In this document: positions 15,737-16,200 of the stretch, piece after piece
Layout of the letters: each line of letters begins with the position of its first letter
How positions within the stretch are numbered: position 1 is the first letter of the stretch
Assembly: GCA_951406725.2 (NCBI GenBank)
Contig: OX597819.1
Location: 37,386,001 to 37,450,000, forward strand
Origin: Octopus vulgaris
Lineage: Eukaryota
Direction of reading: 5' to 3'
Length of the DNA: 64,000 nucleotides
The notes under the pieces: generated by a model
Databases searched by the model: none
What the model was told of the DNA's origin: nothing
Seen by the model: the letters and a program-made list of their open reading frames with translations, nothing else
Translations under genes and position numbers: made by a program

Positions 15737-16200
15737 AATAATAGAAATATCATTATTTGTAATTCTCTCTAAAGGAGACTACGGCAGCGGTACTGGATAT
15801 TAATAGTTGGAGCTAATCAACGGCATCATTCGTCCTATTTTTCTGGACCGCTGCCGTAGTCTCCTTTAGAGAGAACTAGAAATAATGATATTTCTATTTT
15901 TGAAAACCAGTGGATGTATTCCACTGAATTTAGGTAAATAATCCTTCGAACAGTCAGTCAGCAACGACGCCTGCTGGGTTCGGCTACTCCACATTGATAA
16001 GAGGCAGACACCTCGAAAGTAGTCTATGGATGCTAGACCAGCAAGGGGAAGCTGCTGACCTCTCCTGTTCGAAGGTTATAATGGACACAGGTTTGTGTGT
16101 CACATAGCTAGCTAGAGGCGATGGCCTCTTGGAGCTAATCAACGGCAGCATTCGTCCTATTTTTCTGGACTGCCATGTTAGCTTGGCGATAACTATTAAT
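15737..16200 (+). mobile_element. Retrozyme-like element, subfamily B, with inverted head and 14-bp TSD
   Basis: TSD aaccatgtttatat at 15723-15736 and 16201-16214; 15739-15792 inverted relative to 15847-15898; 15807-15848 repeated directly at 16129-16170. Confidence 0.8.
15988..16030 (+). ncRNA. Type I hammerhead ribozyme motif, U3-A8 variant
   Basis: tccaca-TTGATAA-gagg(cagaca)cctc-GAAA-GTAG-TC-tatgga, at the apex of the long stem ccttcgaacag...ctgttcgaagg. Confidence 0.7.

What the first reader, a model, noticed from the sequence alone, without database searches (positions are those of the whole stretch)
15737..16200. TSD-bounded, more-than-monomer insertion of a U3-A8 hammerhead element
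Seen: within a 14-bp TSD, the plus strand runs D-part (15807-15848), A, HHR rod, C, D (to 16200), so it begins and ends with the same sequence. The inverted head (15737-15808) continues from the 3' end aactattaat into atccagtaccgctgcc, closing a ~360-nt circle. The same D-to-A junction is present at 40215-40245. Stem III reads AGTAGT, one change from palindromic ACTAGT. Inference: target-primed reverse transcription of a circular or multimeric RNA with twin priming.
Basis: partly seen in the sequence, partly recalled or inferred. Interest (0 to 1): 0.85.

Follow-up and report, generated by a model that had tools for sequence, protein, structure and literature searches.

The report
Twin-primed hammerhead retrozyme insertion, Penelope-type
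This is one copy of a multi-thousand-copy, ~361-base, protein-free repeat carrying a hammerhead ribozyme motif (an animal retrozyme with Penelope-type anatomy); its two-armed insertions almost always end at a different fixed site on each side and carry one sequence variant throughout, which suggests both cut DNA strands likely primed on the same, probably circular, RNA.

Summary
An exact 14-bp TSD (15723-15736/16201-16214) brackets a 72-nt inverted arm and a 394-nt forward arm with a type I U3-A8 hammerhead. It is a decayed copy of a ~361-nt non-coding family with three subfamilies (4,109 hits of one motif), with head-to-tail arrays of up to 7 units and hammerhead stems that covary. No copy examined sits as the pLTR of an ORF. 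Kind and anatomy are known: non-LTR retrozyme or non-autonomous Penelope-like element (PLE); inverted arm, 'tail' at one end and U3-A8 are all in print. I did not find in print the rule seen across copies. In 29 of 30 classifiable two-armed insertions one arm ends at site 1 and the other at site 2, about 60 nt apart. In 15 of 36, neither arm is contained in the other. Arms agree at 37 of 42 variant sites, against 263 of 1,670 between insertions. A resident 781-aa PLE follows the same rule (3 of 3). Best reading: a PLE enzyme primes both target strands on one RNA, probably a circle. Circle, expression, cleavage and the partner enzyme are untested. New member of a known kind; interest 0.52.

The parts
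15723..15736 (+). Left copy of the 14-bp target-site duplication
15737..15808 (-). Inverted arm: outer end at site 2 (end of the ~60-nt tail, q53), then tail/A hairpin (15737-15789), 9-nt linker (15790-15798) and last 10 nt of D (15799-15808)
15807..15848 (+). 5'-truncated start of the forward arm (q281-322); overlaps the inverted arm by 2 nt (TT); followed by a 39-nt skip to q1
15849..16200 (+). One full unit q1-352, outer end at site 1 (D-end)
15938..16079 (+). Predicted rod that carries the hammerhead
   Evidence: z -5.0
15988..16030 (+). Type I hammerhead motif: U3 15994, A8 15999, stem II 16001-16014, stem III 16018-16023, predicted cut after C16024; private changes G16019 and A16026
16201..16214 (+). 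Right copy of the TSD
40058..40296 (.). Second family insertion in the window: 12-bp TSD (40058-40069 / 40285-40296), inverted arm ending at site 1, forward arm ending at site 2, no hammerhead

Best explanation
This is a decayed copy of a ~361-nt non-coding hammerhead repeat (non-LTR retrozyme) that was likely inserted by a Penelope-like RT/GIY-YIG enzyme acting in trans, which likely primed both target strands, one at each of two fixed sites, on the same and probably circular RNA. Shown in DNA: TSD, two arms, fixed ends, arrays, one haplotype per insertion, conserved hammerhead. Inferred steps: (1) tandem copies are transcribed and cut by the hammerhead, probably as dimers through the palindromic stem III, and the monomer is ligated into a circle. 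(2) The PLE protein nicks both strands of an AT-rich target about 12-14 bp apart. (3) One 3' end primes at site 1 and the other at site 2, about 60 nt apart. (4) Each RT copies from a few dozen bases to several rounds. (5) The two cDNAs join head to head over short homology, often in the 3' arm of the rod, and repair leaves the TSD. Here the site-2 arm stopped after 72 nt, and the site-1 arm copied one unit, skipped 39 nt and went on 42 nt.
For: Family: the 40 scored candidates of 2,592 gave near-full-length matches at 89-100%; 4,109 exact hits of the D motif and 1,945 of a hammerhead motif, controls 0. Arrays with a 362-nt period reach 7 units. Hammerhead: U3 in 59 of 60 and A8 in 60 of 60; 5 of 12 pairs change on both sides, 92.9% of cells pair, against 50% or less in slid controls (7 distinct rows from three related subfamilies). 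Stem III is palindromic in three spellings. End rule: of 59 position-ordered insertions 36 are two-armed; 30 have both ends classifiable, 29 are mixed, 1 is site2/site2, none site1/site1; 27 of 28 after dropping two apparent duplicates, binomial p about 1e-7 against 0.5. In 15 of 36 neither arm lies inside the other; in four the site-2 arm is only the tail. Opposite arms agree at 37 of 42 variant sites in the 12 insertions with such sites, against 263 of 1,670 between insertions. One variant occurs only in the four units of one array genome-wide and one only in the two arms of one insertion. Only 2 of 95 5' ends fall within 5 nt of the cut site, so a cut linear monomer is unlikely to be the template. 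A young 781-aa RT+GIY-YIG PLE in the genome (Pfam) has a U3-A8 core with ACATGT, a tail ending in CTATTAT, and follows the same rule in 3 of 3 two-armed copies. A purified PLE protein nicks and extends both strands, starts at two internal RNA sites and is predicted to be a dimer (PMC11167929).
Against: No RNA-level evidence: circle, expression and cleavage are untested. No PLE examined shares sequence with the unit (60 GIY-YIG loci, partly overlapping), so the partner enzyme is unidentified. The one chimera found points to a different PLE family than the one sharing cis features. A variant that looked private to a 5-unit array was found at three other loci. Haplotype sharing could come from gene conversion after insertion or from a homogeneous parent array missing from this assembly. 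Most arm pairs with informative sites have one arm contained in the other; by my reading only L158 (8 of 9 sites) and L169 combine sharing with non-containment. In vitro the PLE hammerhead was not needed for insertion and uncut RNA was the main substrate, and no strand difference in start site was seen. No scar at the cut site in 60 copies.
Confidence: 0.55

Rival explanations
1. Same dual priming by a PLE enzyme, but the template is an uncut linear multimer transcribed from a genomic array; no circle is needed.
For: Autonomous PLEs here also form partial or full tandems. In vitro, unprocessed RNA was the main substrate. Homogeneous parent arrays would also give homogeneous daughters; one tested variant was shared with other loci.
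Against: The hammerhead is conserved with compensatory changes, so multimers would be expected to be cut. The 17 sampled insertions with two or more near-full units each look like one haplotype, not mosaics. A variant private genome-wide fills all four units of one array, which needs a single-unit bottleneck.
Confidence: 0.25
2. One priming event followed by fold-back or self-priming makes the inverted arm, as proposed for rotifer Penelope elements; the tail arises on resolution.
For: Explains shared haplotype directly. In 21 of 36 two-armed insertions one arm lies inside the other. 17 of 95 junctions fall at q212-224, around a short palindrome. Proposed in PMC3846280.
Against: In 15 of 36 neither arm contains the other, and in four the site-2 arm is only the tail, absent from the other arm. 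In the window copy the inverted arm holds sequence that the forward arm lacks. It does not explain why the copy always stops at the other fixed site.
Confidence: 0.1
3. The copies are solo pLTRs or 5'-truncated ends of an ORF-bearing PLE that was not found, not an independent retrozyme.
For: The anatomy equals that of PLE insertions. Only a small share of family loci and of 6,136 GIY-YIG candidates was examined.
Against: Full 361-363-nt units repeat head to tail with no room for an ORF. In 191 family loci (many overlapping, flanks about 1.2-1.5 kb) PLE protein hits occur in 4, none as an ORF between pLTRs.
Confidence: 0.07
4. A SINE-like RNA inserted by a LINE with L1-type twin priming; arrays grew later by DNA-level duplication.
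For: TSD plus inverted 5' part resembles L1 twin priming (recalled). LINE-like ORFs are present in the window.
Against: No poly(A) tail; both arms start at fixed internal sites and overlap in unit coordinates; arrays occur on both arms inside single insertions; the same rule holds for a PLE.
Confidence: 0.03

Closest known systems
Metazoan non-LTR retrozymes (Cervera and de la Pena 2020, PMC7229834; mussel units ~350-390 bp)
   Same: Type I hammerhead in short low-GC tandem repeats, no LTR/PBS/PPT, TSDs longer than 4 bp, proposed PLE mobilisation and circular template.
   Different: U3-A8 core. Circles not shown here. The two-armed anatomy and fixed start sites were not in the passages and Discussion I read; its supplement could not be read.
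Penelope-like element insertions (Arkhipova 2013 PMC3846280; Craig 2021 PMC8557442)
   Same: Partial tandems, inverted 5'-truncated copy, TSD, tail often at one end only, (TA)n targets.
   Different: No ORF; tail about 60 nt rather than 30-40. Those papers read the tail as endonuclease resolution and the inversion as self-priming, not as one start site per strand.
Anolis Poseidon PLE in vitro (Frangieh 2024, PMC11167929)
   Same: Two internal RT start sites bounding the tail, AT-rich nicking, both strands extended, predicted dimer.
   Different: Autonomous element; no strand difference in start site reported; hammerhead cleavage dispensable in vitro; no circular template tested in the text I read.
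Animal retrozymes as non-autonomous PLEs (bioRxiv 10.64898/2026.07.22.740005)
   Same: Same classification, argued from co-occurrence and pLTR similarity.
   Different: Mostly vertebrates; no insertion anatomy. Here no pLTR of matching sequence was found.
U3-A8 minimal hammerhead of Schistosoma Cercyon PLEs (PMC4209133)
   Same: Same core covariation, palindromic 15.2-16.2 region, dimer model.
   Different: Here the motif has a full stem I in a long rod and sits in an ORF-free unit.

Membership tests
Non-LTR retrozyme | Type I hammerhead motif in each unit | tested here: met
   U3-A8 variant; this copy carries two private changes; no Rfam match at gathering score
Non-LTR retrozyme | Short (150-450 bp) low-GC units as monomers and tandem multimers | tested here: met
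   360-363-nt units, arrays to 7 units
Non-LTR retrozyme | No protein coding, no LTR structure | tested here: met
   no ORF of 90 aa or more over the insertion; no ORF between units in 191 loci; PBS/PPT not scanned separately
Non-LTR retrozyme | TSD longer than 4 bp when present | tested here: met
   14 bp and 12 bp in the window; 12-14 bp in L012, L023, L024, L026, L089; unreadable in (TA)n targets
Non-LTR retrozyme | Expressed as linear and circular RNA | not testable with these tools
   needs northern blot or RNase R RT-PCR
Non-LTR retrozyme | Self-cleavage | not testable with these tools
   inferred from conservation only
Autonomous Penelope-like element | RT + GIY-YIG ORF between pLTRs | tested here: not met
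PLE-mobilised non-autonomous element | Partial tandem, inverted 5'-truncated arm, tail at one end, AT-rich or (TA)n target | tested here: met
PLE-mobilised non-autonomous element | Sequence shared with the pLTR of a resident autonomous PLE | tested here: inconclusive
   no blastn match in 60 PLE loci beyond one separate insertion; only short motifs shared with the 781-aa family; one chimera with another family; few PLE families sampled
L1-type twin priming | Inverted and forward parts come from adjacent, non-overlapping parts of a poly(A) RNA with a variable inversion start (definition recalled) | tested here: not met
   arms start at two fixed sites and overlap

The most novel reading that the evidence does not exclude
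A dimeric Penelope-like RT/endonuclease primes both target strands on a single circular ribozyme RNA, one protomer at each of two fixed sites about 60 nt apart, and both copy by rolling circle. That would explain the head-to-head inversion, the one-ended tail and the tandem arrays of all PLEs in one mechanism, and would be genomic evidence that retrozyme circles are the actual transposition template.
Probability: 0.35. Interest if true: 0.78.

Novelty: new member of a known kind. Interest (0 to 1): 0.52.

Why it matters
How PLEs make their inverted and tandem insertions, and whether animal retrozyme circles are really copied into DNA, are stated open questions in the papers read. This family is small, young (subfamily C units about 98% alike) and numerous, so each insertion records both ends of the reaction. 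The one-site-per-arm rule and single-haplotype arms give sharp predictions for the existing in vitro PLE system, and intact PLE ORFs in the same genome are candidate partners. The element class itself is not new.

Tried and rejected
Rfam at gathering score found no hammerhead in the window, only a 5S rRNA and a tRNA. RNA: no RNA holder listed. Contigs of three guessed-RNA runs and one run of unknown kind cover the unit, and the head-to-tail joint appears in two guessed-RNA runs and the unknown run; genomic tandems give the same joint, so this says nothing on circles or expression. A long loose end in two runs maps to one genomic locus with a truncated copy, not to a PLE. Partner search: 60 GIY-YIG loci from several families showed no pLTR match; L049/L053 holds a separate, opposite-strand insertion. 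L254 is a family copy and a PLE about 600 bp apart in one (TA)n tract. In one search the shared 311/312 variants are alignment artefacts in a T run; one search drops q300-325, one duplicate locus and one off-subfamily locus. One search used a misregistered structure and is replaced. Six two-armed insertions with atypical ends were left out of the 29-of-30 count. One search tested a single-unit variant (1 hit) and is only a control. Earlier-findings look-ups returned nothing. Literature searches listed no paper on this family or on a one-site-per-strand rule; most listed papers were seen as listings only, subscription papers are not covered, and supplements of PMC7229834 and of the preprint could not be read.

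Full report
Observation. The insertion lies between two exact copies of a 14-bp target duplication, 15723-15736 and 16201-16214; such a recurrence occurs at 1 of 8,655 positions tested in the window. Using unit coordinates q1 = 15849, the left arm (15737-15808, minus strand) runs from q53 back through the A hairpin, a 9-nt linker and the last 10 nt of D. The right arm (15807-16200) starts at q281, skips q323-361 over a shared AC, and reads q1-352. The unit folds with z -8.1. 'Begins and ends with the same sequence' is loose, and only one hammerhead is present.

The family. The window lies in a 2.8-Gb genome; I take it for an octopus from recall of a neighbouring SINE-like repeat, which no call tested. 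The unit gave 2,592 candidates, of which 40 were scored and all matched near full length at 89-100% (subfamily A). A second subfamily B, about 80% identical, gave 3,001 candidates, 40 scored at 94-100%. A third, C, was found from a loose end in public contigs and gave 1,603 motif hits. Exact motifs count 4,109 D-ends and 1,945 hammerheads, with controls at 0; these are motif hits, not insertions.

The hammerhead. Over 30 A and 30 B copies, U3 is kept in 59 and A8 in 60; position 15.2 is C in 59, G only in the window copy, which also has A16026 where 58 have G. Stem III is a palindrome in each subfamily: ACTAGT, ACATGT, ACGCGT. On 7 distinct rows, 92.9% of cells pair and 5 of 12 pairs change on both sides; slid controls pair at most 50% (the rows are related, so this is not a probability). 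U3-A8 is already reported in Schistosoma PLE hammerheads, as is the palindrome-dimer model (PMC4209133, passages). Cleavage was not tested.

No ORF. Seven PLE protein queries against 191 family loci (many overlapping) hit 4 loci: a separate opposite-strand PLE, a distant fragment, an antisense fragment, and L227, where the 3' part of a young PLE is joined to q~101 of the unit over 5 shared bases. Conversely 60 GIY-YIG loci held the unit once, as a separate insertion. So the copies examined are not ordinary pLTRs, though only a small share of either set was seen.

The end rule. Copies end at two fixed places: site 1 (D-end, q~352) and site 2 (tail end, q~53, about 60 nt further on). For a sample not chosen by score I took the loci behind the first 100 D-motif hits on contig C1. 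Of 59 insertions, 23 are one-armed (15 site 2, 6 site 1, 2 other) and 36 are two-armed head to head. Thirty have both ends classifiable: 29 pair site 1 with site 2, one pairs site 2 twice, none pairs site 1 twice; six with atypical ends were left out. Dropping two apparent duplicates gives 27 of 28, p about 1e-7 against the most favourable independent model. The motif could miss insertions with two very short site-2 arms, but not site1/site1 ones. Both window insertions obey the rule, in opposite arrangements. In 15 of 36 neither arm is contained in the other, and in four the site-2 arm is only the tail, which a fold-back copy of one cDNA cannot produce.

One haplotype per insertion. In subfamily C, divergence is 0.58% within an arm, 0.67% between arms and 1.88% between insertions (37 insertions). 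After removing an alignment artefact, opposite arms agree at 37 of 42 variant sites (12 insertions) against 263 of 1,670 between insertions. The 17 insertions with two or more near-full units look homogeneous rather than mosaic. One variant is found genome-wide only in the four units of one array, another only in the two arms of one insertion; a third candidate was also present at three other loci. Only 2 of 95 5' ends lie within 5 nt of the cut site, while 17 lie at q212-224 in the rod's 3' arm. Gene conversion or an unassembled parent could also give homogeneity.

Partner. A young family with a 781-aa open frame matches RVT_1 (just under cut-off) and GIY-YIG and has a cysteine motif between them, which PMC8557442 gives as the mark of Neptune/Nematis. 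Its pLTR has a U3-A8 core with ACATGT, its tail ends in CTATTAT as site 2 does, and 3 of 3 two-armed copies put the tail on one arm only. It shares no alignable sequence with the unit. The L227 chimera points to a second family instead. The partner is open.

Mechanism. Most likely a PLE protein nicks both strands, primes at site 1 on one and site 2 on the other, copies the same RNA, and the cDNAs join head to head. This fits the in vitro Anolis PLE, which extends both strands from two internal sites and is predicted to be a dimer (PMC11167929, parts 1-2 of 4 read; three supplements searched with no hits), although that work saw no strand difference and found hammerhead cleavage dispensable. 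A circular template is my preferred reading of the single-haplotype arrays and the read-through of a conserved ribozyme; an uncut linear multimer is the main rival. Neither is shown.

Comparison and novelty. It meets the DNA-level features of non-LTR retrozymes (PMC7229834, passages and Discussion; PMC7761336, passages), which a 2026 preprint treats as non-autonomous PLEs (parts 1-3 of 5 read). The anatomy, including a tail on one end, is described for PLEs (PMC3846280 and PMC8557442, passages) and read there as self-priming or endonuclease resolution. Eight searches listed nothing on this family or on one start site per strand; unread supplements and subscription papers could hold either. Verdict: new member of a known kind, with a useful mechanistic record. 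Interest 0.52.

Noticed in passing
L051 (G000:C16:20834000-20842000) and L052-L070: Young PLE family with 781-aa open frames in many copies, U3-A8 hammerhead core in its pLTR, and a tail on one arm only in 3 of 3 two-armed copies; candidate partner enzyme.
   Followed up: partly
L255 (G000:C2:34639000-34647000, minus strand): Second young PLE family (copies 98-99% alike over the query, 1,546 candidates), ~4.5-kb tandem unit, long intact RT frame, and a hammerhead-like motif near its 3' end with an unusual core and a palindromic stem III.
   Followed up: partly
L227/L253, G000:C1:46034700-46037000: Chimeric two-armed insertion: one arm ends at site 1, the other is the 3' part of the second PLE joined to unit position ~101 over 5 shared bases; may record an RT template switch between the two RNAs.
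   Followed up: partly
L220:830-1015 and 1840-2030: Family arm ending at q313 joined to an antisense fragment of a PLE ORF start; the same junction occurs twice, inverted.
   Followed up: no
window 33419-34591 (-): 5'-truncated PLE fragment with an endonuclease-like end, 57% identical over 86 aa to the second family; no Pfam hit.
   Followed up: partly
window 60971-61504 (+): Open frame with a GIY-YIG-like motif, possibly another PLE remnant.
   Followed up: no
window 584-1738 (+): 384-aa open frame resembling a LINE reverse transcriptase (likeness recalled, not searched).
   Followed up: no
window 15234-15601 and 16301-16427: Two tandem 184-bp copies of a SINE-like repeat upstream of the insertion and an inverted copy downstream.
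   Followed up: no
window 6743-6861 (-) and 43892-43963 (-): Rfam matches to 5S rRNA (103 bits) and tRNA (50 bits).
   Followed up: no
L152 (G000:C15:38604007): Single-copy locus with a truncated family copy that appears in long contigs of two coded organisms; possibly an old shared insertion.
   Followed up: partly
L166 and L188/L190: Identical two-armed insertions repeated 1.1 kb and 2.4 kb apart, probably local duplications after insertion.
   Followed up: no
L253 minus strand, about 3000-6000: A further PLE-like coding stretch on the opposite strand beside the chimera.
   Followed up: no
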